From: a virus
Lineage: Duplodnaviria > Caudoviricetes
Reading direction: 5' to 3' (one strand)
IMG/VR virus record: IMGVR_UViG_2786546892_000017
DNA length: 64,000 bases
The notes beneath the pieces are model-generated. The model was not told the DNA's origin, did no database searches, and saw only the letters and a list, made by a program, of their open reading frames with translations. Below are positions 9,460 to 51,594 of the stretch, one piece after another (positions within the stretch are counted from its first letter, which is position 1; each line of letters begins with the position of its first letter). A program made the position numbers and the translations under genes.

Positions 9460-9692
9460 TCGGATACTCCTGAAAGCCGTCCGGCGCGCACCCCTCCGAC
9501 GGTGCGGACGAGTGACGAACGATGCCGGATTTCGGTGTGCGAGGCGGGCGGGTGACGAAATTCACTCCGCTCCATTTCCCAGCATGGGAATGAGGGGCGC
9601 GGGGCGACGCAGTCCGCCGTCCCCGTTCGAACGGTATTCTTTCTGGGATCATGTCCCCGAACTCGCGGATCAGGGTGGTGTCGACACCCGTC

Positions 9693-12973: not shown

Positions 12974-12996
12974 CGAATGTGCACCGAATGTGCACC
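12968..12996. repeat. 11-bp tandem repeat GTGCACCGAAT x2.6; putative integrase arm-type sites
   Basis: Directly visible between the integrase start and the tRNA. Confidence 0.7.
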
Positions 12997-13076
12997 AGAG
13001 ACGTGTCGATGACGGAGGGAAAATGACGCAAGCGATTGGAATTTATCGGCTTACGTCACGCGAACAGAAAATGAAA

Positions 13077-25077: not shown

Positions 25078-25129
25078 GGGTGGTCGCCGTGGGGTGGGCG
25101 GGACTCTCGACACGTCCGGCGGAGCGACG

Positions 25130-26744: not shown

Positions 26745-26835
26745 GGGGTATTCCGGTAAGAGGTAAGGGGCAAGTTTGGGGAGCCTCCGTGCTCCCCGGG
26801 TCCGCGCCCCGGGCGACAAAGGGCGCGGGAGCGAA

Positions 26836-37936: not shown

Positions 37937-40444
37937 TTATGCCTTCCCCCATTTCCCCAGCGGGCAGGCTTCCTGCGGATACCACACCTTTCCCGGCTGG
38001 TCCTCCTTTTGCCCGGGTGCGAACCCCGCCGGCTTCACGTCGAGCGGACACCCGCACTGTGAGCAGCGGTCGTCCTTCCCGCGGGCCGGGCAGATGAGAC
38101 ACAGCGAGTACCGCTCCTTCGCCTTATCCTCGCTGACGAAATGAGAGCCGCCCAACCAGTGCCGCACCTTTGCGGCCCCGAAGTTCGCGATCTGCCGGGC
38201 GACGTTTGGAAGGTCCGGCTTGTCCTCGGGCCGACACCCGAGAACCATCAGCCCGTGATTGTTCTCGTACGATTCGAGGACCGTCCACTCCCGATGACTT
38301 TCCATGAACTTCGCGAGACCGGCCACGACACCAGGACCGCCGTCGTCCCCCTTGACGCCGAACGTGTTGGCGTCCGTACAGTGGACGACGATGTACCGGG
38401 AGACCGCGCCGGCCAGTCGGTCAAGGGTCTGGTGGACGGCCGATGCCGTGTGGTGGGTGTCGAGGAACAGGAGGTCGGTCGGCTCAATCTTTGCCCGGTC
38501 GAGATTCGTCACGTCGACCGTCAGCCCCCGGAATCCCGCCTCCCCGCGTTCGGCTGTGGCACTCTGCCAGTCGGGCTTGACCGCCGTGAAGTAGCTGCAA
38601 AACCGCTTGGCCTTGCTCGCTGCGAGAGCCGCGAACGCAGGGGGCTTGAACCACGCCGATACCTCCGTCACGTGGTCGCACTTGTCGGCCAGTGCCTTCA
38701 GCCGCTCTACATGCTCGTGGAAGTCGCTCGGAGTCGCCTTTGCCACAGCGTACAGGTCCACCAGCGGGGGTGCCTTCGACGTCTGCCCGCACGGGACACA
38801 CCCAGCGGCAGGCTCTGTCGCTTTCGGCTTCACTACCTCGGCCGGGAACCAGTTCGGCGCCGGCCCCCAGAACTTGTGATCCGTGATCGGTCGGCCGCTC
38901 AGTTGCCCGCTCTTGGCCTCGTAGCAGACGGCCGCGTGCCCTGTGAACACCCCGGGGGTGTTGACGTGGATGGATGGGGGGCAATTGGGATCAACGGTCA
39001 GGCGGACCCACTTCGAGCGGTCACCGTCGTGGTCCGGTTCGAGGATGACGGACCGGCCGCCCTCCCCCTCCTTGGCCGCCCGCTCCAGGTTCCGGAGGGC
39101 AACGCCGGTCCGCATCGTCAGTTGGTGCAACGGCTCGTGACGCTCCTTGACCGCGAGCCAACCGGTTTCGTTGAGTCCTTCGTAGTTCAGGTTGCTGATG
39201 ACCGGAGATTCAGGGTTCCTCGCGAGGGCATCCCCGATCCGGTCGAAGTACCCAGGCGGGTAAAGGACATCGTGTTCGAGGAAGACAATGGCGTCGAACT
39301 CAATCGGCCCCTGAACAAGAATGGCCTGTTTGATCTGCTTGACGATGGTAGCGTGGGAGCGGGTTCGATCCTTCACATCCAAGGTCGTGTTGATAAACGG
39401 GTTGCCGGGAATTACCCCCCAATCGCACGTTGAAACAAAAACCTCGTGCCGCCCCCGCTCGTTGGACTCATCGGCCGCCCGCTTGATCGTCGCGAGGGAC
39501 CGCTGAAGCAACGCGACCGGCTTCGTGTTGTCCGAGTACCAGACCCCCAGAAGCCGTTGCTTCTTGATTGGCAACGCCCGTTGGCCGAACGGCTGGATCT
39601 TCTCGGCCTGAACTGCAACTTGCTCGAACTGCAGCCGCGGGAACGCCGAATGATTGCCTGCTAGCAGCGACGGTGAGCCGCTGTTGACGTGCGCCGTCCA
39701 AACCTGCTCCGTCGCCTCGATCCCCAATTCCCGGTGCCCGATCAGGAGGTTCCTGACGGAAACCTGGTGGTGGAACGGGTAGGTCGGTAGGTCGCCGTTG
39801 GCATTGGCCCGGAAGCGGTGCCGCCACTTCAGGCCGGGCAAGCAAAGAGCCTTACCGCCCTTCCGCCGAAAGACTTCATGGATATACCCTTCCTCCATTC
39901 CGAATTGCTGGAAGAGGGGATTGAACCCGGGCCACGCCTCGCACCGGGCCATGAAACAGCCCAGACCCATCGAGTGGATTTCAAACGGCTCGTTCCCGGC
40001 TGCCCGCGGGTCGAGTTTCCAGACCCCCCAATACCCGGGAGGGTGGGTCGGTTCGAGATGCGAGGCCATGAGCCGGCCGTCGTCCGACACGAGAGGGCCG
40101 CTGACAATGTCCCGGCTGTCGGGGTTGACACGCGCGTAATCGATTGCCGCCTGAACTGCCCCGCCGCACAACGGCACATGGTCGTCCACGCACATCAGCC
40201 ACGGCGTCTGCGCGCACTCGAACAATGCCGACCGCGGGGCACTCGTCCCCGTCAGGTCCGGCCGATGAATGTATCGGCCCCCGACCGCCAGGGTCACCGC
40301 CCGGGTCTGCGGGCAGGCACGCGGGGCGTTGTCGAGGACGATGATCGGCGTTCGCGGGTGAAACTCGTGCAGGACTTGCAGGGTCATGTAGACCCCCTTA
40401 AAGTCCTGATACGTCGCCATGCCGATCGTTAACGGTTCGCTCAT
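37937..40444 (-). CDS. Multidomain glycosyltransferase (two GT-A-like domains, SAM methyltransferase-like domain, Cys-rich tail)
   Basis: LTIGMATY..VLDN..MCVDDH; FLEHDVLY; TDLLFLDTHH; C..C..CSQCGC..CPLGKW. Confidence 0.8.
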   Translation of the reverse strand: MSEPLTIGMATYQDFKGVYMTLQVLHEFHPRTPIIVLDNAPRACPQTRAVTLAVGGRYIHRPDLTGTSAPRSALFECAQTPWLMCVDDHVPLCGGAVQAAIDYARVNPDSRDIVSGPLVSDDGRLMASHLEPTHPPGYWGVWKLDPRAAGNEPFEIHSMGLGCFMARCEAWPGFNPLFQQFGMEEGYIHEVFRRKGGKALCLPGLKWRHRFRANANGDLPTYPFHHQVSVRNLLIGHRELGIEATEQVWTAHVNSGSPSLLAGNHSAFPRLQFEQVAVQAEKIQPFGQRALPIKKQRLLGVWYSDNTKPVALLQRSLATIKRAADESNERGRHEVFVSTCDWGVIPGNPFINTTLDVKDRTRSHATIVKQIKQAILVQGPIEFDAIVFLEHDVLYPPGYFDRIGDALARNPESPVISNLNYEGLNETGWLAVKERHEPLHQLTMRTGVALRNLERAAKEGEGGRSVILEPDHDGDRSKWVRLTVDPNCPPSIHVNTPGVFTGHAAVCYEAKSGQLSGRPITDHKFWGPAPNWFPAEVVKPKATEPAAGCVPCGQTSKAPPLVDLYAVAKATPSDFHEHVERLKALADKCDHVTEVSAWFKPPAFAALAASKAKRFCSYFTAVKPDWQSATAERGEAGFRGLTVDVTNLDRAKIEPTDLLFLDTHHTASAVHQTLDRLAGAVSRYIVVHCTDANTFGVKGDDGGPGVVAGLAKFMESHREWTVLESYENNHGLMVLGCRPEDKPDLPNVARQIANFGAAKVRHWLGGSHFVSEDKAKERYSLCLICPARGKDDRCSQCGCPLDVKPAGFAPGQKEDQPGKVWYPQEACPLGKWGKA

Positions 40445-40454: not shown

Positions 40455-42458
40455 CTAGCTGCATCCGGTCATCATTTGGCACGCGGTCCGCGTGGGGTAT
40501 ATGCCACCACCCACCGGCTGACAGACCCCCAACACGCAATTCCAGCCGATGCCACCGCTACTCGTGCTGCTCGTTGTTCCGTCCGCGCAGACTGCCTGGC
40601 AATCGAGGCTCGTCGCGTAGGGGCCGCCACCGGGGGTAGCCCCGGTAGGGCACAAACCGCCGACGAGGGTGGCGCAGAAGTCCGGGGACGGGCAGCAGTA
40701 ATACCCCGTCCCCGTGCTGGTACTGGTCGTCGTGGTCGTCGTCGTTGAAGTCGTGGTGCTGGTCGTCGTGCTGGTGGTCGTCGCGGGGGCAGTGCTGGTG
40801 CTGGATGTCGTGCTGGTGGTACTCGTCGTCGTACCGGGCAAGCACGGGGACGCGACGCACAGCGCTACGGTGGAGTAAGTCATCCCGGTGTTGATGTCGA
40901 TTGCGCCCGGGTAGTACATGTAGAGATCGGCCAAGCTGATGTGGCACTCGGCAAACGGACCCGAAACGGCCGACCCGTTGTACAGATAAAACGTGTAGCA
41001 TGTGTACGGCGGTGACGTACTGGTACTCGTCGTCGTGCTGGTCGTCGTCCCGGGCGGCGTACTGGTCGACGGATTCACGCACGGTGTAATAGCCCAGTCG
41101 CACGGGCCGGTAGGAGATCGATCCGGGACGCCGCAGACGCAAACGATGCCGGCGCCACTGCACGTTCCACTCACCACGCCATCGCACGTCGTTACCGGCA
41201 CGGGCAGGCACGAGCCGCTTATCTGGGCCCACCCGCCCAGCCCGTTGGGGCCCATAACACAAGTGCCACAGCAGATACACGGAGCGGGCGGTGGCGGCGG
41301 AACAGGTGTACTCGTACTGATAGGGCCGCAATACGGAGGGGTGTACGATCCGCCGGAGATGCAAGCCGTCGTCACCGCGGTAACGCACCCACCGGGCGAC
41401 ACCGGAGGCGGGCACGGCGGCCACGGGCAATCGCACCCTGTCCCGCACGCGAGTGTCTTTAGGTACTCCCCTGAACCGTTGTCCGTGAAAAGGCAGTAGT
41501 TTGGATTGCACCCGGGCGTACTGGTGCTGGTTGTGGTGGTGGTGGTGGTGTACGGCGGGGCCTGAAACTCCCAATAATACGGCTCGTCCGGCGCCGCAAT
41601 GACCAACGTCGGCGACACGTACCCCGCCCCGCCGGCCCCCAATACCAGAGTGGCCACCTTGCCACCCGCCACGGTTGCGGTGATCACCGCACCGGCACCG
41701 GCTGGGTCCGACACCGTCACCTGCGGGGAGACCGTGTAGCCACCAGTCCCGGGGTCGGTCAGCGTGACGGTCGAAATGCTCCCGCCGGAATTCGCGACCG
41801 TGCCTTGGGCCGTCGTCTGCCGATTCGTCGGGCTGGCCCAGAACCGCGCGTTAACCTTGCCGTGGGTGTCGATTACGGGGATCAGACCTGTCACCGGATC
41901 AGGCACGGGAACAGCGTTCCAGACCTGGACCGGATCGGATGTGTCCTGCCAGGTCGGGGCAGTGGCGGCCGTCACTAATTCTTGCGGCTGCCAACTATAA
42001 AGGAACCCACCGGAAGACGACGTGGAGCCCGTCACCCGCCCCCACATGCTGGCTTGCAGGATACTGAATTCCCACATGCCCGATTGCGTCGGCGACTTCC
42101 AGAACCACCCGTATAAGTTGCCCGGTTTGTCGTCAGTGAGCGTGTCGGTCGGGAACGGATCGCCCTGTACGGGGAACGACGAGTTGACCACCTCGTCCTG
42201 CGAATCGTCATCAATGAACGTGCCGTCCGCCTGCATCACCTGCGGCTGGTAGCTGTACACCTTCTGGGCTCCGGGGCCCGCCGCCTTCCCCGTCAATCTC
42301 CCCCACTGCCCATCGAGCATGTTGGGCAGCTGGATCGACCTCGCCCCGTTCGGACCTGGCACCTCCGAGAACGGCGCGGGGAACCGCAACCCCTCGACGG
42401 CCCGGAGGCGACGGTCGAGGGCGTCCAGGCGGGCACGGTCGGCTGCTGAGTCTGCCAT
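40455..42458 (-). CDS. Cys-rich, Thr/Ser-tract virion (tail-tip) protein
   Basis: Poly-Thr tracts, many Cys, GGYTVSPQVTV structural repeat; motif-2 promoter. Confidence 0.7.
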   Translation of the reverse strand: MADSAADRARLDALDRRLRAVEGLRFPAPFSEVPGPNGARSIQLPNMLDGQWGRLTGKAAGPGAQKVYSYQPQVMQADGTFIDDDSQDEVVNSSFPVQGDPFPTDTLTDDKPGNLYGWFWKSPTQSGMWEFSILQASMWGRVTGSTSSSGGFLYSWQPQELVTAATAPTWQDTSDPVQVWNAVPVPDPVTGLIPVIDTHGKVNARFWASPTNRQTTAQGTVANSGGSISTVTLTDPGTGGYTVSPQVTVSDPAGAGAVITATVAGGKVATLVLGAGGAGYVSPTLVIAAPDEPYYWEFQAPPYTTTTTTTSTSTPGCNPNYCLFTDNGSGEYLKTLACGTGCDCPWPPCPPPVSPGGCVTAVTTACISGGSYTPPYCGPISTSTPVPPPPPAPCICCGTCVMGPNGLGGWAQISGSCLPVPVTTCDGVVSGTCSGAGIVCVCGVPDRSPTGPCDWAITPCVNPSTSTPPGTTTSTTTSTSTSPPYTCYTFYLYNGSAVSGPFAECHISLADLYMYYPGAIDINTGMTYSTVALCVASPCLPGTTTSTTSTTSSTSTAPATTTSTTTSTTTSTTTTTTTSTSTGTGYYCCPSPDFCATLVGGLCPTGATPGGGPYATSLDCQAVCADGTTSSTSSGGIGWNCVLGVCQPVGGGIYPTRTACQMMTGCS

Positions 42459-42463
42459 AGGGG

Positions 42464-42550
42464 GAATGTGGGGTCCGCGGGGGAACACTGTGAGCATCCT
42501 AACGAGGTCCGTTGCCTGAGTGAGATAGTGCCCACGAACCGGCCACATTC
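42464..42550. promoter_or_regulatory. Divergent triple promoter: motif-2 (-) 42464-42488, motif-1 (-) 42496-42521, motif-2 (+) 42526-42550
   Basis: All three motifs readable with conserved spacing. Confidence 0.75.
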
Positions 42551-42556
42551 GGGGGC

Positions 42557-43780
42557 ATGGCAGAACTGGAAAGCGAAGAAATCGGCGGCGACGACCTGTT
42601 CCCCGGCGTGCCCAGCTCGGGCTCCCCGGCGTCGTACATTTTGCCCGAGCCCGACCCCGCCGATAATTTCGACGCGGATACCAATTGGTCCGAGCAAGTC
42701 ACCGGCAACGAGGCCCCGGGCGGCGGGTCGTCTTTTAGTCGCGACGAGGGGAATGCGGGGTTGTACGGCTATGTACCGTACAACATGGTTCGGACCGCCG
42801 TAAGAGACATGGTCGGGTACTGTTGGGCCGACCAAGGGCCGCCTTGGCAACTCCACCGCGTCAACCCGTGGCAACACCCGGACTTCCCGTGGATGCGGTG
42901 CCAAAGTGTTCACGTGCAACCAGTTAACCCGTGTGGAGGTCCGAGTCAGGCGGACCCGACAACCAACGTGATCTGGACCAATTCGGCGGCCACGACGGCG
43001 CCTCAGTGGTCGAGCGCAGCGACGGCGGCCGTGCGCCCGAAGCGGCAGATCAACTACACGCGGGCCGCGTGTACCCTGAGCTTCAAGCCGTTCCCGTACG
43101 TCTTCTTGGAAGACGCGGATATGCAGGCGTATGGGTTGAAGGAGTATTATCGTAACTGTGATAGATTTTCTAGTATAGACCCGGCCCTCACGACGTTGAT
43201 GGCCTCGGCTACTCCGTTCATGACTTTTTTGGAGGGTCTGGACAACTCCACACCCGGCAAGCCGCTGACCAGTTTTACGCCGCCGCAGATGTTTCAAGGT
43301 GATTTGTACGAGCTGCTATGTCAAACGGATCTGGTCTTGGCATGGTACGGGGTGCCGTTGGATTTTGTCTGCGACCCCTACCTTCCGAGCAAAATCCTTG
43401 CATGTGTAGGCACGGTTAACATTAATGATCAGTGGCTGAACGTGTTTCCCAAAGGCACGTTGTTGCTGAATGCCCCACACATTAGAAAATCAATACAGAA
43501 CGTCTGGACAACACCGAACACGATTGGCTTCACAGTCGACGTGTTTTTCCCGTTCAAATTTTTCAATCCAACAGCTGGCGTTATGCTGGACTACCAGGAC
43601 GGACGAACCTCATCCCTGACTCAACCGGTTTTTAACGGGCACAATTTGTTCCCGCTCGGGACGACTGGCAGATACTATTCGGCCGCCAGAAAGAACAAGA
43701 ATACCCAGCAGGGAGATCCGACAAAGCCACTGATTTCATTCAGCGATTTCGACACGATGTTCGCACATGTGAAATCGTAG
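42557..43780 (+). CDS. Putative minor tail protein on the opposite strand
   Basis: 407-aa ORF between tape measure and tail tip; motif-2 promoter; VGTVN..FPKGTLL pattern. Confidence 0.6.
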   Translation: MAELESEEIGGDDLFPGVPSSGSPASYILPEPDPADNFDADTNWSEQVTGNEAPGGGSSFSRDEGNAGLYGYVPYNMVRTAVRDMVGYCWADQGPPWQLHRVNPWQHPDFPWMRCQSVHVQPVNPCGGPSQADPTTNVIWTNSAATTAPQWSSAATAAVRPKRQINYTRAACTLSFKPFPYVFLEDADMQAYGLKEYYRNCDRFSSIDPALTTLMASATPFMTFLEGLDNSTPGKPLTSFTPPQMFQGDLYELLCQTDLVLAWYGVPLDFVCDPYLPSKILACVGTVNINDQWLNVFPKGTLLLNAPHIRKSIQNVWTTPNTIGFTVDVFFPFKFFNPTAGVMLDYQDGRTSSLTQPVFNGHNLFPLGTTGRYYSAARKNKNTQQGDPTKPLISFSDFDTMFAHVKS

Positions 43781-43785
43781 CCACT

Positions 43786-43912
43786 ACTCAGGCAACGCCA
43801 CCCGCTACAATTCCCTTGACGACCAGCGCGGAGTAGCTACCGCGCGTAAACCTTCCGGCCGGCACTGCGGGTTGCGTTCCCCTGTGGTGTCGGCCGGAGG
43901 GCGGGTCGTTAC
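43786..43912 (+). ncRNA. Motif-1 promoter plus structured leader RNA, copy A
   Basis: Inverted repeat of 49265-49391; three-stem fold with compensatory changes. Confidence 0.7.
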
Positions 43913-43925
43913 GAGGGAACGCACG

Positions 43926-44177
43926 ATGAGTGGAGATACTCCTGGCACCGAGACCGATGTCACGTGCCCGCAATGCGACAAGCAATTCATCTGGGTTGTC
44001 CCGTCCCCACCGCCGGTCCCAGAATCCGGACCGTGGCAGTTGCGAAAATCGGGCGACGTGTGGGTCGTCTGCCCAAAATGTAAATACACCTTCCCAGGCA
44101 ACCTGCCTTTAGAAATCAACAAGGGGATCAAGTGGCCGCAACCGAAACTGACGGACAACCCGGGCGAGCAAAGTTGA
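43926..44177 (+). CDS. Zinc-ribbon protein
   Basis: CPQC..CPKC; GAGGG RBS. Confidence 0.7.
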   Translation: MSGDTPGTETDVTCPQCDKQFIWVVPSPPPVPESGPWQLRKSGDVWVVCPKCKYTFPGNLPLEINKGIKWPQPKLTDNPGEQS

Positions 44178-44647
44178 TCGCGCGATTACCCGGCCCGGCG
44201 GAAGCCGCATACCACGCCACGGCTATCAAGACCGTCGAGCAAACCGTCCCCACGCTGAACGATTTTTTGGGCAAGATGGTCACGCTCAACGCGGCCCTCC
44301 TCGGCGGCGGCTTCTTGGTGGCCAAAGGCGACGTGCTACCGATTTGGTGGGGTATCCTTGTGATGATCTCGCTTCTGATTTCGCTGAGCGTGGCACTCTG
44401 GGGGTTAATGCCAGAGCGGTCGAACGTAAACTTGGACGCGAGGGGCGGGTTGGAAGCCTACCGAGAATTTGATAACAAGTTGATCGCTAAGAAAGATTGC
44501 GCCATCCAAGGGAGCGCCGCCGCGATAATTGCAGCGTTCGCGATCGGGGTCGTGGGGCTGGCGGTCAAGGCTTGGCCGAGCGAGACAACCGCCACCCAGA
44601 CTACGGCCGAGCGAGTCAAAGCCGACGGCCACCCGACCGGGAAGTGA
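44174..44647 (+). CDS. 3-TM membrane protein, cassette A
   Basis: Three hydrophobic helices; ends ERVKADGHPTGK. Confidence 0.75.
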   Translation: MIARLPGPAEAAYHATAIKTVEQTVPTLNDFLGKMVTLNAALLGGGFLVAKGDVLPIWWGILVMISLLISLSVALWGLMPERSNVNLDARGGLEAYREFDNKLIAKKDCAIQGSAAAIIAAFAIGVVGLAVKAWPSETTATQTTAERVKADGHPTGK

Positions 44648-44655
44648 GGGTCGGG
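44608..44655 (+). repeat. 48-bp 3' cassette repeat with CCCGACC/GGTCGGG hairpin around the stop codon
   Basis: Inverted copy at 48398-48445 (4 mismatches). Confidence 0.85.
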
Positions 44656-44674
44656 CGGCAGAGGCGACCAATTA

Positions 44675-44896
44675 TCAGATAGACCCCGCACCTATCCCCC
44701 GCTGAAACCCTTGGATCGACCGATGCCGGAAGGTCAAAGGCTCGATCTTCGCCCCGCCGTGCTTCGCCCACACGACCGGGGCGATCTCGGCGAGGGCCAA
44801 CGCCACCCCGATCCGGTCGTGGGCCGTAATCGTCTGCTCCATGAAGTCGGCCACCTTCTTCACCCGCTCGTCCAACGTCAGTTCGGGGTCGGGCAC
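44675..44896 (-). CDS. Hypothetical protein
   Basis: Downstream of motif-1 promoter 45013-45038. Confidence 0.55.
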   Translation of the reverse strand: MPDPELTLDERVKKVADFMEQTITAHDRIGVALALAEIAPVVWAKHGGAKIEPLTFRHRSIQGFQRGIGAGSI

Positions 44897-45041
44897 CGCG
44901 GGCAGGTGCCCCGAGTGGCCCTTGGCGCACGGCTGCTGGGGGAGTTAGCATTCGGGGACGAAATTCGTCGTCATGTGTTGCGGCCTCGCGGAATGGGTGT
45001 GGGTACGCGGGCATTGTAACGTGGGGCGTTGCCTGACTCAG

Positions 45042-45368
45042 CTACCACGCCGGCCATCTACCCCAAATCTCGCGGCCGATCAGATATGTCGCACTCCCGG
45101 CGAGGAAGGCGTGCGGCCAATACCTCGCGGCCGATTCCAACTGGCTCATCCGCGGTTGTTCGTCAATTTCTCGGGGCTTGTAACACTGCTCCAGATCAGC
45201 AGCAAATCCGCCATGGCAAGTAGGGCATTCGACCAACGCGGGCGGGCTAACGCCATCGAGGTGGTAGGCTCTCACGACTAATTTCGCGCGGCACGCTGGG
45301 CAGTCGGCAAGAATCTCCACACCGGCTGCTGGGAAATGCTCGGGTCTGGCTGCCATACTCGCTTCCAT
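45042..45368 (-). CDS. Zinc-ribbon protein with C-terminal hydrophobic segment
   Basis: CPAC..CPTC; motif-1 promoter 45403-45428. Confidence 0.6.
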   Translation of the reverse strand: MEASMAARPEHFPAAGVEILADCPACRAKLVVRAYHLDGVSPPALVECPTCHGGFAADLEQCYKPREIDEQPRMSQLESAARYWPHAFLAGSATYLIGREIWGRWPAW

Positions 45369-45478
45369 CACGCTTTCCCTGACGATTCCGGCGCACGCCA
45401 ACATCCTACCACCCGCCGTTGCCTGAGTGGGACGACGCCGGCCCCCGGGAAACTGAAACACCCTCCGGGGGCGATTCG

Positions 45479-45715
45479 CTAGATGTCACCCGGGCCTTCA
45501 TATGGGCTCCAGGCCAACACCTTCGGTCGGTCCAATTTCACTTCTGTGGCCACGACGTGAACACAGAGGAATGTCCTCGTTCCCATGAGCGACAACGCCT
45601 CCTCCTCAGTGCGGGCAACCACGAAGACACGGGCCTCACCATCCCAACTGTCGGTCCCGCCTTCGTCACCGTCGGGGTCTTTCGAGCCGATGATGTAAAG
45701 ATTGTAGGTGCCCAT
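45479..45715 (-). CDS. Hypothetical phage protein
   Basis: VFVVARTEEEA motif. Confidence 0.6.
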   Translation of the reverse strand: MGTYNLYIIGSKDPDGDEGGTDSWDGEARVFVVARTEEEALSLMGTRTFLCVHVVATEVKLDRPKVLAWSPYEGPGDI

Positions 45716-45844
45716 GCGATGGGGTCTCCGTGGGTGTGGGGGTAGAAAAGAAGACAACCGTAGCGATCGCCGTTACGGTTGTGATTGCCTCACGGCCTTT
45801 TTACCGGTATCGGTAAAATGTAGATGCAACTGTATGTCCGCAGA

Positions 45845-46591
45845 CTAGTTCCGCATCCCGGCCAGATCCGAGAACAGGTTCCGTGCGGGTGGCGACTGCC
45901 GTTCGGCCGCGATCACTTCGTCCATGATGCGGTCAATGGCGTCGTCCAGACAGTTCACCTGCGGGCCGTCCCACACGAGCCACCCGCCGACCTTGTCGGG
46001 CACCTCGCCGAACCGCAGCAGCAGGAGGTGACTGGCGAGCCGCGAGATCTTCCCCCGCTGCTTCGTGGTGGTCGTCAGCCGCCGGTGGTGGCAACGCTCG
46101 GCCACGGTGAACCGAGTGATGGAGCGGACCGAACGGCTGTGGTCGATCGCCGCCATGACCTGCTTGACCGTTTCGATGACGATGAGGGCGATTTGCTGGG
46201 CGGTCATCCCGGACGGCGTCGGCTCCTGTTTCGGGCCGAAGAAGTGGGCGTGCAAGACGTCGGCACATTCGTTTTGATACAGCTCGATTTTCTTGACCAG
46301 TTCGGGCTTGTCCTTGGCTACGCGGTTCACGTCCAACGTCGCCAGCCACATGGCCACCCGCTCCCGGGGGATCATCACGGCTTCCTGCTCGTGCCCGCGG
46401 GCGTCTCGTATCAAGATCATCTTGATACGAGCCCACGGCTTCTTCTTCAGCCGCTCCTGTTGCCCCTGCGGTGAAATGCTGAACGACTCGCACACGCGGC
46501 GCACGGAGACGAAGATTTCCCCGTCATCCAGTTTCACGGCGTCGATCACGTCGTCGTGAAACTTCACCGGCACCAACTCATAACCAGCCAT
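45845..46591 (-). CDS. Phage antirepressor (P22 Ant N-terminal-like domain)
   Basis: VKFHDD..FVSVRRVCE..WLATLDVNRV..YQNECADVLHAHF; motif-1 promoter 46644-46669. Confidence 0.85.
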   Translation of the reverse strand: MAGYELVPVKFHDDVIDAVKLDDGEIFVSVRRVCESFSISPQGQQERLKKKPWARIKMILIRDARGHEQEAVMIPRERVAMWLATLDVNRVAKDKPELVKKIELYQNECADVLHAHFFGPKQEPTPSGMTAQQIALIVIETVKQVMAAIDHSRSVRSITRFTVAERCHHRRLTTTTKQRGKISRLASHLLLLRFGEVPDKVGGWLVWDGPQVNCLDDAIDRIMDEVIAAERQSPPARNLFSDLAGMRN

Positions 46592-46740
46592 GTTGCCGAT
46601 CCTCAGAAGGTAAGTAATCAAAACCTTCCCACACTCGCAATGCACTCTAGCTACCTGCGTTGCCTGAGTGCTCATCCGGCAGATCGCACCCGATAAACGA
46701 GAAGACCCCGCCGGGCACGCAGCCAAGCGGGGTCGCACTC

Positions 46741-47088
46741 TCACACCATCACCGACCGATACACCTGCGGCCCCTGCCTGCCGCTGCAGCCCAACCCGTC
46801 CGCCATTGTTCGGCGGTCCCGTTCGTGCCAAAGTTCCTCGCGGTTCGCCACTCGCCTCCGCAACTCCTCTACCCTCTCGGCCGATCCTGGATCTGCCTCG
46901 CACGCTCTGGCCGCGGGTTTCGTCTCCCGAATTTTGGCCCCGAAGGTGGTCGGCCGAGTCACGGACCCCGCAGGGTACATCGCACGTACATTCGGTTTCG
47001 CGTGGCATGGATGGCAAAGGCGCCGCGGTCGAGTGATCTTCCGTTTCTTGCAGTGCCGGCAGGGGTCAACGATGGGGGTTGTCACCAC
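46741..47088 (-). CDS. Zinc-finger protein, paralog of 21776..22024
   Basis: CRHC..TRPRRLC..PGSAER..LWHERD. Confidence 0.7.
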   Translation of the reverse strand: MVTTPIVDPCRHCKKRKITRPRRLCHPCHAKPNVRAMYPAGSVTRPTTFGAKIRETKPAARACEADPGSAERVEELRRRVANREELWHERDRRTMADGLGCSGRQGPQVYRSVMV

Positions 47089-47459
47089 GTCGCACCGGCC
47101 CTCTCGCCGATCTCTTCGGCCATGCGGTCCATCTCGTCAGCCGTCATCGGGTCCGAGTCGGGCATGTCGTCGAGTAGTCCGTCGATCTGCCGGGCCGTCC
47201 GCCACGCGACCACCGATCGACGGATGCGGGCTTCTAAAGCCATTGACAGACCATGCTCGCCGTACTGAAGGCTGGAAGCGGGGGCGGACAGGATTGATTC
47301 CCGAACTACCTGCTGGACTTCCGCGACATCCTCACCGATGGCAACCAGCATGCGGCCGAACCGCTCGACGAAATGCCCGGCGTACTTCAGAAAAGAATGT
47401 GCGCGTGCGGATTCCGACCGCGGATTGCCCCGCGGTAACAAATGCGATACACTTTCCAT
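47082..47459 (-). CDS. Hypothetical phage protein
   Basis: GGAG RBS; divergent from XRE repressor. Confidence 0.6.
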   Translation of the reverse strand: MESVSHLLPRGNPRSESARAHSFLKYAGHFVERFGRMLVAIGEDVAEVQQVVRESILSAPASSLQYGEHGLSMALEARIRRSVVAWRTARQIDGLLDDMPDSDPMTADEMDRMAEEIGERAGATW

Positions 47460-47613
47460 CGAACAACTCCGTGTAGAGCAGAGGGGTTCACCGGCTCTCG
47501 GGCGTGGACAAGACGCCCGAGAGCCTTGAGAACGATCCGTGTTGCACCACAGACCGTCCGGGAAAAGTGTAATTTATAAATTACACTGATTCAATCCCAG
47601 AAGGTCGATTCCC

Positions 47614-47847
47614 ATGATTTTTGTGGCCAAGAAAAAGAGCAGCGAGGCAACACCGTTCGGCCGCAGGCTTCGCGAAAAGCGTGTGGCGGCAGGACTTTCG
47701 CAGCTCGCATTGGCTGAAAAGATAGGGATGTTGCGGCCCGTGATCGCCAAGTTGGAAACGTCTCCGGACGCCAATCCAACCCTGGACACAATTAAGTCAC
47801 TGGCCGCCGCACTTGATGTGAATCCCGCGGATTTGATCGCGGACTGA
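47614..47847 (+). CDS. XRE-family repressor
   Basis: FGRRLREKRVAAGLSQLALAEKIG..NPTLDTI. Confidence 0.9.
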   Translation: MIFVAKKKSSEATPFGRRLREKRVAAGLSQLALAEKIGMLRPVIAKLETSPDANPTLDTIKSLAAALDVNPADLIAD

Positions 47848-47881
47848 TTCTCTCGGGCGGCCCACTCAGGGGACCGCCACC

Positions 47882-48367
47882 ATGCCACGTGATTACGACG
47901 ACGATGACAGCAGCGTTGACTTGCCCCGCCGCAAACCAAAGTCCGCCGGGATACCCGTGTGGCTAATGCTACTCCTCGGCGCCGCCGCCGCGATGGTCCT
48001 TGTCTGTGGGGCGGGGATGCTGCTGTTTGTGATCGGCCTGGGCGGGGCAGCGCGACAGGTTGCAGTGGAACAGAAAGTCCAAGAAGATAATGCGACGGCC
48101 GCTGCCAAGCAAGCCAAACTCGATGCAGACAAGGACAAGGGGACCGCGCCGGCCACAATGACGCGGGAAGAGTTTATGCGAGTCATTGACCGGAAAACTG
48201 AAAAGGAAATTATTGCCCTACTTGGCCGCCCAGAATCAACGGACTTGCATTCTGACGGATCAACATGGCGGTACATGCACCGAACGGTCGACTCGATTTC
48301 TGGGAAAACGGACTACAGTGTCCACATTCGTTTTGTTGACGGTGTGGTAAACAGCGTCACGTTCTAG
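47882..48367 (+). CDS. Membrane-anchored protein with SmpA/BamE-like C-terminal domain (superinfection-exclusion candidate)
   Basis: TM helix; EIIALLGRPE..WRY..IRFVDGVV. Confidence 0.7.
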   Translation: MPRDYDDDDSSVDLPRRKPKSAGIPVWLMLLLGAAAAMVLVCGAGMLLFVIGLGGAARQVAVEQKVQEDNATAAAKQAKLDADKDKGTAPATMTREEFMRVIDRKTEKEIIALLGRPESTDLHSDGSTWRYMHRTVDSISGKTDYSVHIRFVDGVVNSVTF

Positions 48368-48397
48368 CCCCCGCATCTCGCCCACCGCCCTCCCCCA

Positions 48398-48445
48398 CCC
48401 GACCCTTACTTCCCGGTCGGGTGGCTATCGGCTTTGACCCGCTCG
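48398..48445 (-). repeat. 48-bp 3' cassette repeat, copy B
   Basis: Inverted copy of 44608-44655. Confidence 0.85.
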
Positions 48446-49002
48446 ACCGGCCCGACTTCGGGAACCGCCACCGTCTTCACCTTCGCCCGCTGTTCGACGA
48501 TCGCACAAGCCAGCGGAACCGCCAGCAGTCCGACGGAACACGCCGACAGGATGGTCGCCACCATTAGCAACCGGGCCTTGCGGTCGCAGCCGAATAGCGT
48601 TAGGGCGGTGGCCAACACCCATTGGCCGGCGAACGCGACTTCCCCGGTCTCCGTCAGGTCCGCCGCGTACCGCGCGGCCAGCGTAACTGATGGTCTGTAC
48701 ACGGTGCCGACCTGCCGCACGAGTATGCCGTACACGATGGACGCGATGGCGCACGCGAACGCCGGCATGATCCCGATGGCCGTGGCAGGCCCGATCTTCC
48801 CCTCCGCGATGCCGGCGATCGCCCCGACCACGACAAGCCCCGCGCCCCCGCTGAAATAGCCGATCAACGCTGCCGCCTTGACGTCCAGGTCGTCGAACGT
48901 CTTGAGAGCGTAGGCGTGGTCGTCCTTGGCAGCCTGGAGCACCCACTTGTGGTCGACGCCGGGGAGCGGGATATAAGACGCTGCCCATGCCTCCGCGTGC
49001 AT
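48406..49002 (-). CDS. 3-TM membrane protein, cassette B
   Basis: LDVKAAALIG, three TMs; ends ERVKADSHPTGK. Confidence 0.75.
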   Translation of the reverse strand: MHAEAWAASYIPLPGVDHKWVLQAAKDDHAYALKTFDDLDVKAAALIGYFSGGAGLVVVGAIAGIAEGKIGPATAIGIMPAFACAIASIVYGILVRQVGTVYRPSVTLAARYAADLTETGEVAFAGQWVLATALTLFGCDRKARLLMVATILSACSVGLLAVPLACAIVEQRAKVKTVAVPEVGPVERVKADSHPTGK

Positions 49003-49031
49003 CGCGGGCGACCACTCTCTGAGAATCGAGT

Positions 49032-49175
49032 CTATTTCGGTGGGAACCCCCGGCGGAATGGAACCGGCCGCTGCTCCCGGGGTGGGACCGGCGGGGAGGA
49101 TGGCGGAGGAGGCGGAGGAGGGGGACTGGATGGCGGCGGGGGTGGCGATGACGGGGCTCCCGATGACTGGCTCAT
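49032..49175 (-). CDS. 47-aa proline-rich peptide (not in ORF track)
   Basis: Manual translation MSQSSGAPSSPPPPPSSPPPPPPPPSSPPVPPREQRPVPFRRGFPPK; AGGA upstream. Confidence 0.5.
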   Translation of the reverse strand: MSQSSGAPSSPPPPPSSPPPPPPPPSSPPVPPREQRPVPFRRGFPPK

Positions 49176-49264
49176 TGGCGTTCCTGAGAAGTAACCACGC
49201 TCAGCACCAGATAGCTAATCCGGTTGTCGTGGCGCCCACCATCATACGCCAAAACGCCCGCATT

Positions 49265-49391
49265 GTAACGACCCGCCCTCCGGCCGACACCACAGGGGAA
49301 CGCAACCCGCAGTGCCGGCCGAAAGGTTTCACACGGTAGCTACTCCGTGTTGGTCGTCACGGGAGATTGTATCTGGTGGCGTTGCCTGAGT
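49265..49391 (-). ncRNA. Motif-1 promoter plus structured leader RNA, copy B
   Basis: Inverted repeat of 43786-43912. Confidence 0.7.
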
Positions 49392-49437
49392 GGATCAACC
49401 GCTGATCGTCCGGAGGAGGAATTCCCGGGCCACTCTG

Positions 49438-51594
49438 TCACCGCCGCCCCACGATGTGCCTATCAAGCATTTCCCGGGCAGCCACCCCCACAGCACCACC
49501 CGTCGCTGCGGAGACGACGCCACTGACGACCGAGCCGCCTGTACCGCCGATCGCACGGCCCAACGCCGTGGCCAAGGGCTCGATGTATTTGCCTTCGACA
49601 AAATAGTCTCGTAATTCTTTGATCCGTACACCTATTTCCGCGGTGGTGGAAGCTATCTTGACCTCCGGCTTCTCGCCGCCAGCTTGTCCAATCCCGAAAC
49701 TTGACTCTCTGGCCTTGCGAATAACGTCATCGACAGATCCCGTCGAAACATTCCGAACGCCCTTACCCTCACTCGCCCCCTTCGTGTCGGGCGTTTCAAC
49801 ACTCTTGATGCCGAAGAATGCGTTCACGGAGTCGACAAGGTACTTGATGCCGTCTGCCACGGCTTTCACGAATCGCGCGAACGTCGAGGCGGCGCCCAGG
49901 ACGATGTTCTTCAGCAGGTTGAAGGTCGGGGCGAGTGCGTCCCCGATCGAGCTGACCAGCGGGCCGACGGAGTTGGCCAAGGCGCTGAGCGTGTCGCCGA
50001 TCGAGTCGAATGCGTCTCCCAAGGCGACCACCGATGGCTTGATCACGGCAATGATGCCGTCGAACACGCCCTTGACTATGCCGACGATTGACGTAAAGGC
50101 ATTGGCTACGCCGGAAATGATCCGCATCGCGATTCGCAGCGGAGCGGTCAGGGCGTTGACAAAAACCGATTGCATGTACGCGACGACCGGCTGGGCGACC
50201 GACATGATAGTATCGAATGCCGTCTTCATGGGAGACAAGAGGGCGGTGACGACATCCCCGATCGCCGTGACGACTGCCGATAGTACGTCAAAGACCACGG
50301 AAAGAGGGGCGAGGAGCATCGTCACAATTGGGGCCAGTGAAGCCAGAACGGACACAATCGGTTTGATGAGAGAGAGAACCGACAGGCTGAATTTCTGGGC
50401 CGCGACTCCGACCGTGATGAGCGTCGGGAGAATACTGCCGATGGCCGGGGCGATACTCTCGATCACGTTGACGAACAGGCTGATGGCGGTATCCACGTTC
50501 TTCAGGACCGCCCCGGCGCCGGTGGTCGCGATCTGAGTGAGCGTGTCGATGATGGGCGTGATGGCGGTGACGACGCGAGTGAACCCCGCCCCGAGTGCGT
50601 CGAGGACGACTTTCATCACCCCGGACAGTTTGCTGAAGATGGGTTGGAGTTCGGCCAGCGGTTTGGTTGCGGCCGCCATCACTCCCAATCCAACGGCAGC
50701 CCCCGCGATGCCGCCCAACAAAACCGAGAGTCCGCCCGTTGCGGTGCTAACAACTGATGAGAATACGCCAGTTACGGCGACAAGGGCGCCCATCCCCGTG
50801 GCCGCAGCCGCGAGTGCGGCCACCAACGCCTTGCCCTTTGGTGAAAGCGAGGCCAGTGAATCCGCCACGGCGCGCACAAGGGCAGTCGCGGAACCCATCA
50901 CGGGTAGCAACGCCTCGCCTATCGACGCGCGCAGGTCCAGCACAGCGAATTCAAACCCCTTCACGGCGGTCGGCGAAAACGCCGCGACGTAAGACGCGAT
51001 GTTGCTTTGGATGGAGCCAGTTAGCGAGTTGAGCCCGTTCGTGATCCCGCTGAAAAGTTGGGGCGCCCGTCCGAGCCCGGTTGTGAACTTCGAGTATTGG
51101 GTCGATACAACTCCGAGACCTTTTTGGAGCTGCGCCAGGGTGCCGGTTTGGGCTTTCACTTCGGCGTTGGCCTTGGTTCCTCCGGCCGTCAGTTTCTGCG
51201 TGTTGGCGACCAGCATCGCCATTTGTACGTTCGCAGGTTGCAATGCGGCGGCGATCGGCGTGACGTTCGCCAGCAGCTTCGCCACAGGGGGCGGGGACGA
51301 TTGGTTTGCTCCGGACCCAGAGGGAGTCGCACCCGATTGTGTTTGCGACCCGGTGCCCAGGCTCGGCGCCGCCTTGCCGACGTTGGCGAAGAAATTCGAG
51401 ATGGCCGATGTCAATTTGGCCAAAGGGTTCAAATTAGCAGCCGCGGACATGAGTTTGCCTAGCCCGTTGGCGAGCTGGACTATCCGCACATCGAGCGGGG
51501 TGGTGAGTCCCGCTAAAGGGTTCTTTGTCGACGACTGGCTCGGCGCAGGAGACTTCGGCTGGTTCGGTTTCGGTTGGCTTGGCAGCGGGGGCAT
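49438..51594 (-). CDS. Tail tape measure protein
   Basis: 718-aa Ala/Gly/hydrophobic helical repeats, downstream of chaperones. Confidence 0.9.
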   Translation of the reverse strand: MPPLPSQPKPNQPKSPAPSQSSTKNPLAGLTTPLDVRIVQLANGLGKLMSAAANLNPLAKLTSAISNFFANVGKAAPSLGTGSQTQSGATPSGSGANQSSPPPVAKLLANVTPIAAALQPANVQMAMLVANTQKLTAGGTKANAEVKAQTGTLAQLQKGLGVVSTQYSKFTTGLGRAPQLFSGITNGLNSLTGSIQSNIASYVAAFSPTAVKGFEFAVLDLRASIGEALLPVMGSATALVRAVADSLASLSPKGKALVAALAAAATGMGALVAVTGVFSSVVSTATGGLSVLLGGIAGAAVGLGVMAAATKPLAELQPIFSKLSGVMKVVLDALGAGFTRVVTAITPIIDTLTQIATTGAGAVLKNVDTAISLFVNVIESIAPAIGSILPTLITVGVAAQKFSLSVLSLIKPIVSVLASLAPIVTMLLAPLSVVFDVLSAVVTAIGDVVTALLSPMKTAFDTIMSVAQPVVAYMQSVFVNALTAPLRIAMRIISGVANAFTSIVGIVKGVFDGIIAVIKPSVVALGDAFDSIGDTLSALANSVGPLVSSIGDALAPTFNLLKNIVLGAASTFARFVKAVADGIKYLVDSVNAFFGIKSVETPDTKGASEGKGVRNVSTGSVDDVIRKARESSFGIGQAGGEKPEVKIASTTAEIGVRIKELRDYFVEGKYIEPLATALGRAIGGTGGSVVSGVVSAATGGAVGVAAREMLDRHIVGRR

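What the first reader, a model, noticed from the sequence alone, without database searches (positions are those of the whole stretch)
43786..49391. Twin inverted cassettes: shared promoter, leader RNA and 3' tail, but different membrane-protein cargo
Seen: cassette A (43786-44655, +) and cassette B (48398-49391, -) face each other. They share a 127-bp 5' block (57 bp identical, 43856-43912) and a 48-bp 3' block that encodes the same C-terminal peptide ERVKAD(G/S)HPTGK plus a hairpin around the stop codon. Between these blocks each has a small gene (Zn ribbon in A, Pro-rich peptide in B) and a 3-TM protein, with no obvious DNA similarity between A and B. Inference: a fixed expression chassis with exchangeable cargo, like a defence or exclusion hotspot. 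The TM proteins resemble by eye the 3-TM effector architecture of Pycsar-type (DUF5706) proteins. The nested inverted repeats could also let homologous recombination invert the 5.6-kb segment or swap cargo; no invertase is encoded inside.
Basis: partly seen in the sequence, partly recalled or inferred. Interest (0 to 1): 0.85.

Follow-up and report, generated by a model that had tools for sequence, protein, structure and literature searches.

The report
Twin prophage membrane-protein cassettes, shared ends
A prophage in a large planctomycete genome carries two facing mini-operons with the same promoter, folded RNA leader and protein tail, but two different pairs of genes for a small protein and a membrane protein that look like anti-phage pore-formers.

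Summary
Two inward-facing cassettes share a 127-bp 5' block and a 61-nt 3' block, with unrelated DNA between.

The 5' block has two parts. The first is a phage-wide promoter box (14 copies in the window). The second is a ~95-nt leader found only twice in the 12.4-Mb genome. Differences between its two copies preserve its base pairing.

The 3' block encodes the tail ERVKAD(G/S)HPTGK plus a hairpin over the stop codon. A third, diverged copy of the tail sits on a paralog on another contig. It differs from copy A only at synonymous sites, so the peptide is under selection.

The cargo is two conserved two-gene modules: Zn-ribbon plus 3-TM protein in A, and polyproline mini-protein plus 3-TM protein in B. 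Both membrane families are distantly PycTM-like, below family thresholds. No cyclase is adjacent, so this is not Pycsar.

Neither shared block was found in any other genome or collection searched. The "exchangeable chassis" idea therefore rests on one phage, and inversion could not be tested.

My reading is co-regulated accessory membrane-effector operons whose ends were shared by recombination. Earlier notes of this scan report polyproline mini-proteins beside PycTM-like proteins in E. coli P2-like prophages. I did not test that link.

The parts
43786..43811 (+). Promoter of cassette A: phage-wide box CTCAGGCAACG, 8 nt, then TACAAT
   Evidence: The box occurs 14 times in the window (up to 1 mismatch) against 1.22 expected. 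By my reading of the flanks printed, a -10-like hexamer follows at 7-8 nt in 13 of 14 copies.
43817..43911 (+). Leader RNA, copy A: closing stem, a 6-bp hairpin and a 21-bp hairpin
   Evidence: MFE -71.6 kcal/mol, z -6.8. 35 consensus pairs, 2 with compensatory changes and 1 C-G to U-G. Only 2 copies in the genome by BLAST and by covariance model.
43926..44177 (+). A1: 83-aa C4 zinc-ribbon protein
   Evidence: ORF list. Zn-ribbon Pfam hits lie below their cut-offs (best 7.7e-5). A Zn-ribbon ORF lies directly upstream in 6 of 6 A-type loci elsewhere. The four Cys are invariant.
44174..44647 (+). A2: 157-aa three-helix membrane protein. Its TTG start overlaps the A1 stop (TTGA). It ends in ERVKADGHPTGK.
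   Evidence: The database gene call has the same start (P0002). The family has 624 representatives at E<=1e-3. AF2 pLDDT 90.9.
44604..44664 (+). 3' block A: tail codons 44609-44647 and hairpin 44628-44659, with the TGA stop in the loop
44665..48388 (.). Accessory genes between the cassettes: a 73-aa ORF, a Zn-ribbon ORF, a 92-aa ORF, a P22_AR_N antirepressor (45848-46591, minus strand), two ORFs of 115 and 125 aa, an HTH_3 regulator (47614-47847, plus strand) and a 161-aa membrane protein (47882-48367, plus strand)
   Evidence: Not part of the repeats themselves.
48389..48449 (-). 3' block B: tail codons 48406-48444 and hairpin 48395-48424, with the TAA stop in the loop
48406..49002 (-). B2: 198-aa three-helix membrane protein with an LDxKA motif. 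It ends in ERVKADSHPTGK.
   Evidence: Homologs in 19 of 252 genomes of the family, own genome included. AF2 pLDDT 91.1. PycTM-like by ESM Atlas and hhalign.
49032..49175 (-). B1: 47-aa polyproline mini-protein (22 Pro)
   Evidence: A polyproline ORF lies upstream in 12 of 19 B-type loci against 0 in the controls. Eleven of the 12 polyproline ORFs start at ATG and one at GTG; several have stops overlapping the membrane gene start.
49266..49359 (-). Leader RNA, copy B
49366..49391 (-). Promoter of cassette B: the same box, 8 nt, then TACAAT. It lies 47 nt downstream of the tape-measure gene stop.

Best explanation
Two co-regulated accessory operons sit in the tail-gene region of a temperate long-tailed prophage.

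Structure of each operon:
- It is transcribed from one of the phage's own class of promoters.
- It starts with the same ~95-nt folded 5' leader.
- It encodes a small cytoplasmic partner (Zn-ribbon in A, polyproline peptide in B) translationally linked to a three-helix inner-membrane protein of a distant PycTM-like kind.
- It ends in the same 12-residue tail, probably periplasmic, and in a stem-loop at a convergent gene junction.

Origin of the shared ends. The two cargo pairs are separate, old, patchily distributed modules. The shared ends therefore arose by recombination or gene conversion within this phage lineage, which put two different effectors under one control.

Inferred mode of action. 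The membrane proteins compromise or gate the membrane when released by their small partner. That would give superinfection exclusion or abortive defence. The leader would set mRNA stability, processing or read-through. The tail would be a common handle for a partner that is still unknown.

Shown here: the anatomy, the conservation of both gene pairs, pairing-preserving changes in the leader, selection on the tail, and the absence of a cyclase. Inferred: every functional step.
For: Prophage context:
- Integrase at 13202-14347, tape measure at 49441-51594 and major head protein at 60450-61910.
- Sigma factor at 36768-37373 and HTH regulator at 47614-47847. Antirepressor at 45848-46591.

Promoter box: 14 copies against 1.22 expected. 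Thirteen of the 19 exact copies in the genome lie within C20:162-212 kb.

Leader:
- Two copies only.
- 35 pairs, with 2 compensatory changes and 1 C-G to U-G change. Five G-U pairs in the long stem, which pair only on the sense strand.
- By my reading of the alignments, four of the six differences between the two copies sit in those two compensatory pairs, one is the C-G to U-G change and one is a deletion in an unpaired linker.

Tail:
- Three copies in the six-frame translation of the genome.
- A versus the C19 copy: 4 synonymous and 0 non-synonymous codon differences in 12 codons. The host proteins B2 and C19 are only 33% identical.

Cargo:
- The Zn-ribbon plus A2 pair is present in 6 of 6 loci examined.
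- The polyproline plus B2 pair is present in 12 of 19 loci, against 0 of 19, 0 of 19 and 0 of 7 in the controls. Stops overlap starts at several loci.
- The A2 and B2 families are not detectably homologous (probabilities 41.7% and 9.2%).

PycTM likeness:
- hhalign against 13 Pfam-positive PycTM proteins: 67.6% (E 5e-5, 85 columns) for the B family and 76.3% (E 2.2e-5, 126 columns) for the A family.
- PADLOC PycTM: 5 of 7 A-family members, best E 0.0023.
- Pfam PycTM: 5 of 39 B-family members, best E 0.077.
- ESM Atlas, B2: first hit 0.95 with 221 shared features; structural TM-score 0.69-0.70 to a cluster in which 10% of members carry PycTM.

Distribution: patchy. The B family is in 19 of 252 genomes and the A family in 10 of 252. 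Neighbours of B homologs include an Eco57I-type methylase, a KAP NTPase and a sigma factor.
Against: - No function was tested, and no RNA run was available.
- All PycTM signals lie below family thresholds. For A2 the ESM Atlas link is weak (rank 30, score 0.84).
- 21 of 124 A-family members instead weakly match Pfam 8xMP (best E 5.2e-5).
- Foldseek found no solved or viral structure at E<=1e-3 for B2, and no solved structure for A2. VIA-align gave only generic long-helix matches, Z at most 9.5.
- The promoter box also precedes structural genes. The cassettes may therefore be lytic-phase genes rather than lysogen-expressed morons.
- The 3' hairpins have no U-tract and were not scored as terminators.
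- GC content of the cassettes is like that of the rest of the phage.
- Pairing-preserving change in the leader rests on only two sequences.
- The real Pfam-positive PycTM loci examined have neither partner type (0 of 13). The small partners therefore give no link to Pycsar biology.
Confidence: 0.55

Rival explanations
1. Population-level plug-in chassis. The 5' and 3' blocks would be fixed recombination and expression borders, between which related phages exchange many different cargo genes, as in a defence hotspot.
For: Two unrelated cargos sit between the same borders. A third membrane protein in a second element of the same genome carries the same tail.
Against: The borders were found nowhere else:
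- Leader: 0 real matches in 200 other genomes of the family (only partial matches of 25-44 nt, E 4.5e-4 or weaker). Zero exact-core matches in IMG/VR, metagenome and genome collections.
- Tail pattern: 0 of 251 other genomes of the family. Zero in metagenome and genome contigs.
The C19 copy has the tail but a different 5' region (local alignment score 17, 11 nt). Both cargos are of one functional kind, not diverse.
Confidence: 0.15
2. Lysis-timing modules. The three-helix proteins would be holin- or antiholin-like proteins expressed from lytic promoters, with the small partners as regulators.
For: They are small membrane proteins with charged C-termini. The promoter box is shared with structural genes. 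No canonical holin or endolysin turned up among the window ORFs I scanned.
Against: - Only faint holin-family hits: Phage_holin_3_6 in 2 of 18, 2 of 39 and 3 of 124 members, at E 0.11 or weaker.
- No endolysin is adjacent.
- Homologs sit in contexts that are not obviously phage, next to a methylase or a KAP NTPase.
- Many window ORFs were never scanned, so a lysis cassette elsewhere is not excluded.
Confidence: 0.15
3. Programmed invertible segment. Recombination between the inverted blocks would flip the 5.4-kb or 3.7-kb interior as a switch.
For: Inverted repeats of 127 bp and 61 nt bracket the segment. RecA-type recombination at a 57-bp identical core is possible in principle.
Against: - No resolvase, invertase or integrase hit among the ORFs of 42.5-49.4 kb that were scanned.
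- Because both ends are near-identical promoters plus leaders, inversion would not change what drives either cargo.
- The contigs laid show one path and no joints, but they cannot resolve orientation.
Confidence: 0.05
4. A mobile element bounded by terminal inverted repeats.
For: Long terminal inverted repeats lie at 43786-43912 and 49265-49391.
Against: - No transposase family hit inside.
- No target-site duplication in the flanks, read directly from the sequence.
- The outermost 26 bp is the phage-wide promoter box.
- A second, nested pair of repeats coincides with gene 3' ends.
Confidence: 0.03

Closest known systems
PycTM effectors of Pycsar (Pfam PF18967, formerly DUF5706)
   Same: About 150-200 aa, with an N-terminal helix, a two-helix membrane hairpin, a helical cytoplasmic stretch and a third membrane helix. 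B2 has the D-x-K-A motif at the same place. Likeness by profile comparison and protein-language-model features. In passages of PMC11224242, PycTM is described as disrupting membrane integrity after cyclic-pyrimidine signalling.
   Different: No PycC cyclase is adjacent. No member reaches the Pfam cut-off. The partners are a Zn-ribbon or a polyproline mini-protein, which the 13 Pfam-positive PycTM loci examined lack. The cassettes are carried by a phage rather than a host defence operon.
Polyproline mini-proteins beside PycTM/SLATT-like membrane proteins in E. coli P2-like prophages
   Same: A three-helix membrane protein of distant PycTM/SLATT likeness, coupled to tiny proline-rich genes and carried by a prophage in a variable region.
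   Different: Those notes describe three mini-genes after the membrane gene, in another phylum. Here one mini-gene precedes it. I did not test homology between the two sets. tblastn of B2 and A2 against GenBank phages found nothing at E<=1.
Phage morons and prophage superinfection-exclusion membrane proteins, such as HK97 gp15 (recalled, no paper read)
   Same: Small membrane-protein genes with their own promoter and 3' hairpin, inserted among tail genes next to the tape-measure gene.
   Different: The promoter is the phage's general box, GC content is not deviant, there are two facing copies with shared ends, and a small partner gene is present.
nut sites of lambda and put RNAs of HK022 (recalled, no paper read)
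   Same: Two copies per phage of a short structured RNA placed just after a promoter, with stem-loops kept between the copies.
   Different: No sequence or Rfam match. Here the two transcripts converge instead of diverging. Antitermination was not tested.
Conserved boundary sequences in mosaic lambdoid phages (recalled, no paper read)
   Same: Short conserved stretches flank divergent modules and could guide homologous exchange.
   Different: Here both copies lie in one genome in inverted orientation, and no second phage with these borders is known.

Membership tests
Pycsar defence system | Adjacent pyrimidine cyclase (PycC, class III cyclase fold) | tested here: not met
   PF00211 over the whole genome gave 2 hits, at C19:236 kb and C10:201 kb. 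None is on the window's contig C20.
Pycsar defence system | Effector reaches the Pfam PycTM (PF18967) cut-off of 27.2 bits | tested here: not met
   - A2 and B2: no PycTM hit at E<=1.
- Own genome, six frames: best 14.3 bits, elsewhere in the genome.
- B family: 5 of 39 members, best E 0.077.
- A family: PycTM is not among the 25 commonest of 138 families matched.
Pycsar defence system | Activation by cCMP or cUMP | not testable with these tools
   Needs biochemistry.
PycTM-like membrane-effector superfamily (distant) | Profile-level and fold-level likeness to Pfam-positive PycTM proteins | tested here: inconclusive
   hhalign probability 67.6% (B family) and 76.3% (A family) against 13 PycTM proteins. 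PADLOC PycTM in 5 of 7 A-family members, best E 0.0023. ESM Atlas: 0.95 for B2 and 0.84 at rank 30 for A2. No solved PycTM-like structure was found for comparison.
Phage moron | Own promoter and own terminator between conserved phage genes | tested here: inconclusive
   The promoter box is present. A 3' hairpin is present but lacks a U-tract and was not scored by the terminator scan. The cassettes lie between the tape-measure and tail genes.
Phage moron | Deviant base composition | tested here: not met
   GC 0.59-0.63 at 42-50 kb, against 0.60-0.65 for the rest of the prophage.
Site-specific invertible segment (Gin/Hin/Cin type) | Invertase encoded in or next to the segment | tested here: not met
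   No resolvase or recombinase family among the ORFs scanned in 42.5-49.4 kb. ORFs under 73 aa other than B1 were not scanned.
Site-specific invertible segment (Gin/Hin/Cin type) | Both orientations present in a population | not testable with these tools
   Only contigs of one run were available, and the 57-bp core collapses into its own contig.
Holin | Match to a holin family, or adjacency to an endolysin | tested here: inconclusive
   Only faint Phage_holin_3_6 and Phage_holin_10 hits, at E 0.11 or weaker, in 2 of 18, 2 of 39 and 3 of 124 members. No endolysin was seen among the ORFs scanned, but not all were scanned.
Known RNA family (Rfam 15) | Covariance-model match of the leader | tested here: not met
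   0 matches at E<=1 in 42000-50000 on both strands.

The most novel reading that the evidence does not exclude
The shared leader RNA and the shared C-terminal dodecapeptide would form a phage-specific two-level control system that any membrane effector can be plugged into. The leader would gate the transcripts through processing, stability or antitermination. The tail, exposed outside the cytoplasm, would be a common recognition or cleavage tag through which one trigger arms several unrelated pore-forming effectors at once, somewhat as a protease arms bacterial gasdermins. The polyproline and Zn-ribbon partners would be new kinds of sensor for cyclase-less PycTM-like effectors. The polyproline one might read translation stress through ribosome stalling.
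Probability: 0.12. Interest if true: 0.85.

Novelty: new variant of a known kind. Interest (0 to 1): 0.6.

Why it matters
Three things here are not described in the papers I could search.

1. Two sizeable families of PycTM-like membrane proteins work without a cyclase. The A family alone has 624 cluster representatives at E<=1e-3. Each family is tied to its own tiny partner, a Zn-ribbon or a polyproline peptide. If these are effectors, their trigger is of a new kind.

2. A short C-terminal peptide is kept by selection on three membrane proteins of two families in one host. That points to a shared handle for regulation or targeting.

3. A new structured leader RNA has pairing-preserving differences between its two copies.

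Together they give a compact natural example of one phage wiring different toxic membrane proteins into one circuit. It can be tested with simple expression and deletion constructs. Searches for print: 'PycTM'/'Pycsar', 'proline-rich'/'SLATT'/'prophage'/'membrane effector', 'Gemmataceae'/'prophage' and '8xMP'. None listed a paper on such modules.

Tried and rejected
Searches that found nothing:
- Rfam on 42-50 kb: no match.
- PHROGs: no family for A2, B2 or B1.
- Word-index protein search: only B2 itself, and for A2 itself plus one relative, P0003.
- Leader in other genomes: BLAST against 200 other genomes of the family gave only partial chance-level hits. The covariance model R1 found, besides the two copies, one hit at E 0.84 in the own genome, taken as noise. 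I did not run R1 on other genomes.
- Exact leader core: 0 in IMG/VR, metagenome contigs and genome contigs.
- Promoter pattern in IMG/VR: 21 contigs with one match each, so no related phage was recognised.
- Tail patterns: 0 outside the own genome.
- B family in IMG/VR: one locus, L088, the same protein as P0154.
- tblastn of A2 and B2 against GenBank phages: no match.

Structure and context:
- Foldseek on PDB (both models) and on BFVD (B2 only) gave nothing at E<=1e-3. VIA-align gave only BAR-like long-helix bundles, Z at most 9.5, within the background stated for helical models.
- tblastn of this prophage's ORFs against 18 extended loci around homologs: no shared phage genes, apart from a sigma homolog and one weak hit in the own genome's C19 element. 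The homologs are therefore not in close relatives of this phage.
- No tRNA gene was called beside the C19 copy. I had read a tRNA-like 3' end there by eye.

Sequencing runs:
- No RNA holder was listed. One DNA run was kept as contigs and may be the source.
- The laid contigs show no joints and cannot resolve orientation.

Considered and rejected:
- A TIR transposon: no transposase and no target duplication.
- A leader peptide across the leader: no shared ATG.
- Frameshift fusion of B1 to B2: the B2 frame is open upstream, but I have no evidence for it. In one low-GC relative (P0154) a short SPPPP motif is in frame at the N-terminus.

Full report
**Setting**

The window is C20:131704-195703 of a 12.36-Mb, 20-contig genome. 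A homolog in a genome of the same coded family bears the NCBI name Zavarzinella formosa, so the family is probably Gemmataceae.

GC falls from 0.71-0.76 in the first 12 kb to 0.59-0.65 afterwards. From there on the window is a prophage:
- integrase at 13202-14347, tape-measure protein at 49441-51594 and major head protein at 60450-61910;
- a sigma factor at 36768-37373 and an HTH_3 regulator at 47614-47847;
- a P22-type antirepressor at 45848-46591.

The finding lies between the tape-measure gene and the next tail genes.

**Observation**

The inverted repeats are as described:
- 65 nt at 98%: 43848-43912 / 49265-49329;
- 44 nt at 82% and 26 nt at 92%, which extend the 5' block out to 43786 / 49391;
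- 61 nt at 87% for the 3' block: 44604-44664 / 48389-48449.

No other inverted pair in 8 kb exceeds 28 nt. The alignment of A with the reverse complement of B has no convincing similarity between the blocks. In Logan contigs of the one run that holds this DNA, the 57-bp identical core is a separate contig at about twice the depth of its neighbours (91.4 against 48-53). BLASTP of the two membrane proteins aligns only the last 12 residues.

**The 5' block has two parts**

The outer 26 bp is CTCAGGCAACG, 8 nt, then TACAAT. The 11-mer occurs 14 times in the window against 1.22 expected. It is nearly always on the coding strand of the next gene. By my reading of the printed flanks, a TAnnnT hexamer follows 7-8 nt later in 13 of 14 copies. 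Of the 19 exact copies in the genome, 13 lie within C20:162-212 kb. So this is the phage's general promoter or operator box and is not specific to the cassettes.

The inner ~95 nt occurs only twice in the genome, by BLAST and by a covariance model. It folds into a closing stem, a 6-bp hairpin and a 21-bp hairpin (-71.6 kcal/mol, z -6.8 for copy A; z -3.6 for copy B). Between the copies:
- the small hairpin has two G-C to A-U double changes;
- the long stem has one C-G to U-G change;
- the long stem holds five G-U pairs, which pair only in the sense RNA.

Rfam has no match. With two sequences this is suggestive, not statistical. It agrees with an earlier first-reader note on the same stretch.

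**The 3' block**

It encodes ERVKAD(G/S)HPTGK and a 7-10-bp stem with the stop codon in the loop. Each hairpin lies where the cassette meets a converging gene. The stops are 28 nt apart at A (44647 and 44675) and 38 nt apart at B (48367 and 48406). A two-way terminator role is therefore plausible, although there is no U-tract and the consensus scan did not score the hairpins.

A six-frame search of the genome finds exactly three such tails. The third is ERVKADGHKGTGK, on a B2 paralog (33% identical) at C19:370975-371547. Against copy A its codons differ at four synonymous and no non-synonymous positions, and it has no comparable hairpin. So the peptide is what is conserved, not the DNA or the stem.

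In all other homologs found, the protein ends without this tail. A degenerate pattern for the tail hits 0 of 251 other genomes of the family. A longer pattern hits nothing in metagenome or genome contigs.

**Cargo A**

A1 (83 aa) has four invariant Cys. Its TGA stop overlaps the TTG start of A2. All 6 loci of other genomes that I could examine have a 48-62-aa C4 Zn-ribbon ORF directly upstream, with gaps of -34 to +43 nt.

A2 belongs to a large unnamed family:
- 10 of 252 genomes of the family, own genome included;
- 624 cluster representatives at E<=1e-3 and 419 at E<=1e-10.

The AF2 model (pLDDT 90.9) has long helices at 8-51, 57-78 and 92-133.

**Cargo B**

B1 has 47 aa, 22 of them Pro. A polyproline ORF lies upstream of the membrane gene in 12 of 19 loci, against 0 of 19 antisense, 0 of 19 downstream and 0 of 7 A-type loci. 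Eleven of the 12 start at ATG and one at GTG. At five loci the stop overlaps the membrane gene's start by 4 nt (-4), and at one by 1 nt (-1). The C19 paralog has its own polyproline ORF.

B2 homologs occur in 19 of 252 genomes. D40, K42, A43 and R96 are invariant in the first alignment. The AF2 model has pLDDT 91.1.

A low-GC branch of the family has a helical N-terminal extension instead of a polyproline partner. One member starts with SPPPP in frame.

**Are A2 and B2 paralogs?**

hhalign gives 41.7% (7 against 18 sequences), 20.6% and 9.2% with the deepest profiles. They share topology but not demonstrable homology. Because each pair has its own relatives in other genera, the shared ends cannot be leftovers of a duplication whose middle diverged. 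They were spread by recombination.

**PycTM**

I collected 13 Pfam-positive PycTM proteins from 12 of 301 genomes of the phylum. Results against them and other PycTM models:
- hhalign: 67.6% for the B family (85 columns, N-terminal helix to the end of the second membrane helix) and 76.3% for the A family (126 columns);
- PADLOC PycTM: 5 of 7 A-family members, best E 0.0023;
- Pfam PycTM: 5 of 39 B-family members, best E 0.077;
- ESM Atlas, B2: first hit 0.95, a cluster with PycTM on 29% of members, and structural TM-score 0.69-0.70 to a cluster with PycTM on 10%;
- ESM Atlas, A2: only rank 30 at 0.84;
- 21 of 124 A-family members weakly match Pfam 8xMP instead.

None of these reaches a curated threshold. 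The only two class III cyclases in the genome are on other contigs. The 13 real PycTM loci have neither partner type.

So the cassettes work like PycTM only by inference, and they are not Pycsar. Passages of PMC11224242 and PMC13069673 describe Pycsar as cyclase plus effector, and PycTM as a membrane-disrupting effector.

**Is it a chassis?**

Neither block was found outside this genome. The promoter pattern finds no related phage in IMG/VR. The neighbours of homologs elsewhere share no genes with this phage. Those neighbours include a sigma factor, an Eco57I-type methylase and a KAP NTPase, which fits mobile or defence-rich settings only loosely. The chassis idea therefore rests on two copies in one phage plus the tail alone on a third protein.

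**Inversion**

Because both ends carry the same promoter and leader, inversion would not change what drives either cargo. No recombinase was seen inside. Orientation could not be tested.

**Mechanism, with odds**

My best reading (0.55) is co-regulated accessory operons for membrane-acting effectors, each with a small regulator. The ends were shared by recombination, so one control applies to both. The leader would act on mRNA fate and the tail would be a common, probably periplasmic, handle. The periplasmic placement comes from my own count of Lys and Arg on either side of the helices, which is weak. Exclusion or abortive defence is the likeliest use. Lysis timing is the main functional rival (0.15).

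Earlier AI notes of this scan describe polyproline mini-proteins beside PycTM/SLATT-like membrane proteins in E. coli P2-like prophages. This window may extend that pattern to another phylum, but I did not test the link.

**Limits**

- No RNA data were available.
- Supplementary files of papers were not available.
- Papers other than the two named were seen only as search listings.
- HK97 gp15, morons, nut/put RNAs, lambdoid boundary sequences and gasdermin activation are recalled, not read.

Noticed in passing
window 31250-58869 (14 sites); also C20:209972 and C20:211626, beyond the window: Phage-wide asymmetric box CTCAGGCAACG followed 7-8 nt later by TAnnnT. It is nearly always oriented with the next gene, before both structural and accessory genes. 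It is probably the promoter or operator class of this phage, perhaps read by its own sigma factor. One divergent pair lies at 55649 (minus strand) and 55681 (plus strand).
   Followed up: partly
window 47566-47587: A perfect 22-nt palindrome, AGTGTAATTTATAAATTACACT, lies 27 nt upstream of the HTH_3 regulator gene (47614-47847), in the divergent gap to the 125-aa gene on the minus strand. It looks like an operator of an immunity-type switch sitting between the two cassettes.
   Followed up: no
C19:370780-371550 (L033, L101): A third B-type module (polyproline ORF plus B2 paralog with the same tail) on another contig. It has a sigma-70-like promoter and a different hairpin-rich 5' region. A stretch that looks like the 3' end of a tRNA follows about 250 bp downstream, although ARAGORN calls no tRNA there. 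This may be the edge of a second integrated element.
   Followed up: partly
window 42557-43780 (+): A 407-aa ORF with no Pfam or PHROG match lies between the tail genes and the cassettes. It is on the plus strand, opposite to the minus-strand head and tail genes identified here. It is bracketed by promoter boxes of opposite orientation (42510 minus, 43787 plus).
   Followed up: no
window 1-13000: GC is 0.71-0.76 before about 12 kb and 0.59-0.65 after. A tyrosine integrase lies at 13202-14347, so the prophage's left end is near 12-13 kb. The high-GC flank is well above the genome mean of about 0.64.
   Followed up: no
window 36768-37373 (-) and C19:335.5 kb (L109): A phage-encoded sigma factor (Sigma70_r4, E 3.8e-6) has a 36%-identical paralog on C19.
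   Followed up: partly
window 37940-40444 (-): An 835-aa protein in the tail region has a glycosyltransferase family 2 domain at its N-terminus (E 2.3e-5).
   Followed up: no
window 24385-25113 (-) and 26085-26819 (-): A PhoH-like protein (PHROG E 3.9e-62) and a phosphoheptose-isomerase-like protein (E 4.4e-28) lie in the early or accessory region of the prophage.
   Followed up: no
window 49201-49263 (-): A 20-codon hydrophobic mini-ORF (ATG to TGA) lies between leader copy B and the B1 start. Cassette A has no counterpart.
   Followed up: no
L088 5791-6606 (IMG/VR contig) = P0154: The only B-family member found in IMG/VR starts MSNSPPPP in frame with the membrane domain. This hints that the proline-rich piece and the membrane protein can be one polypeptide.
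   Followed up: partly
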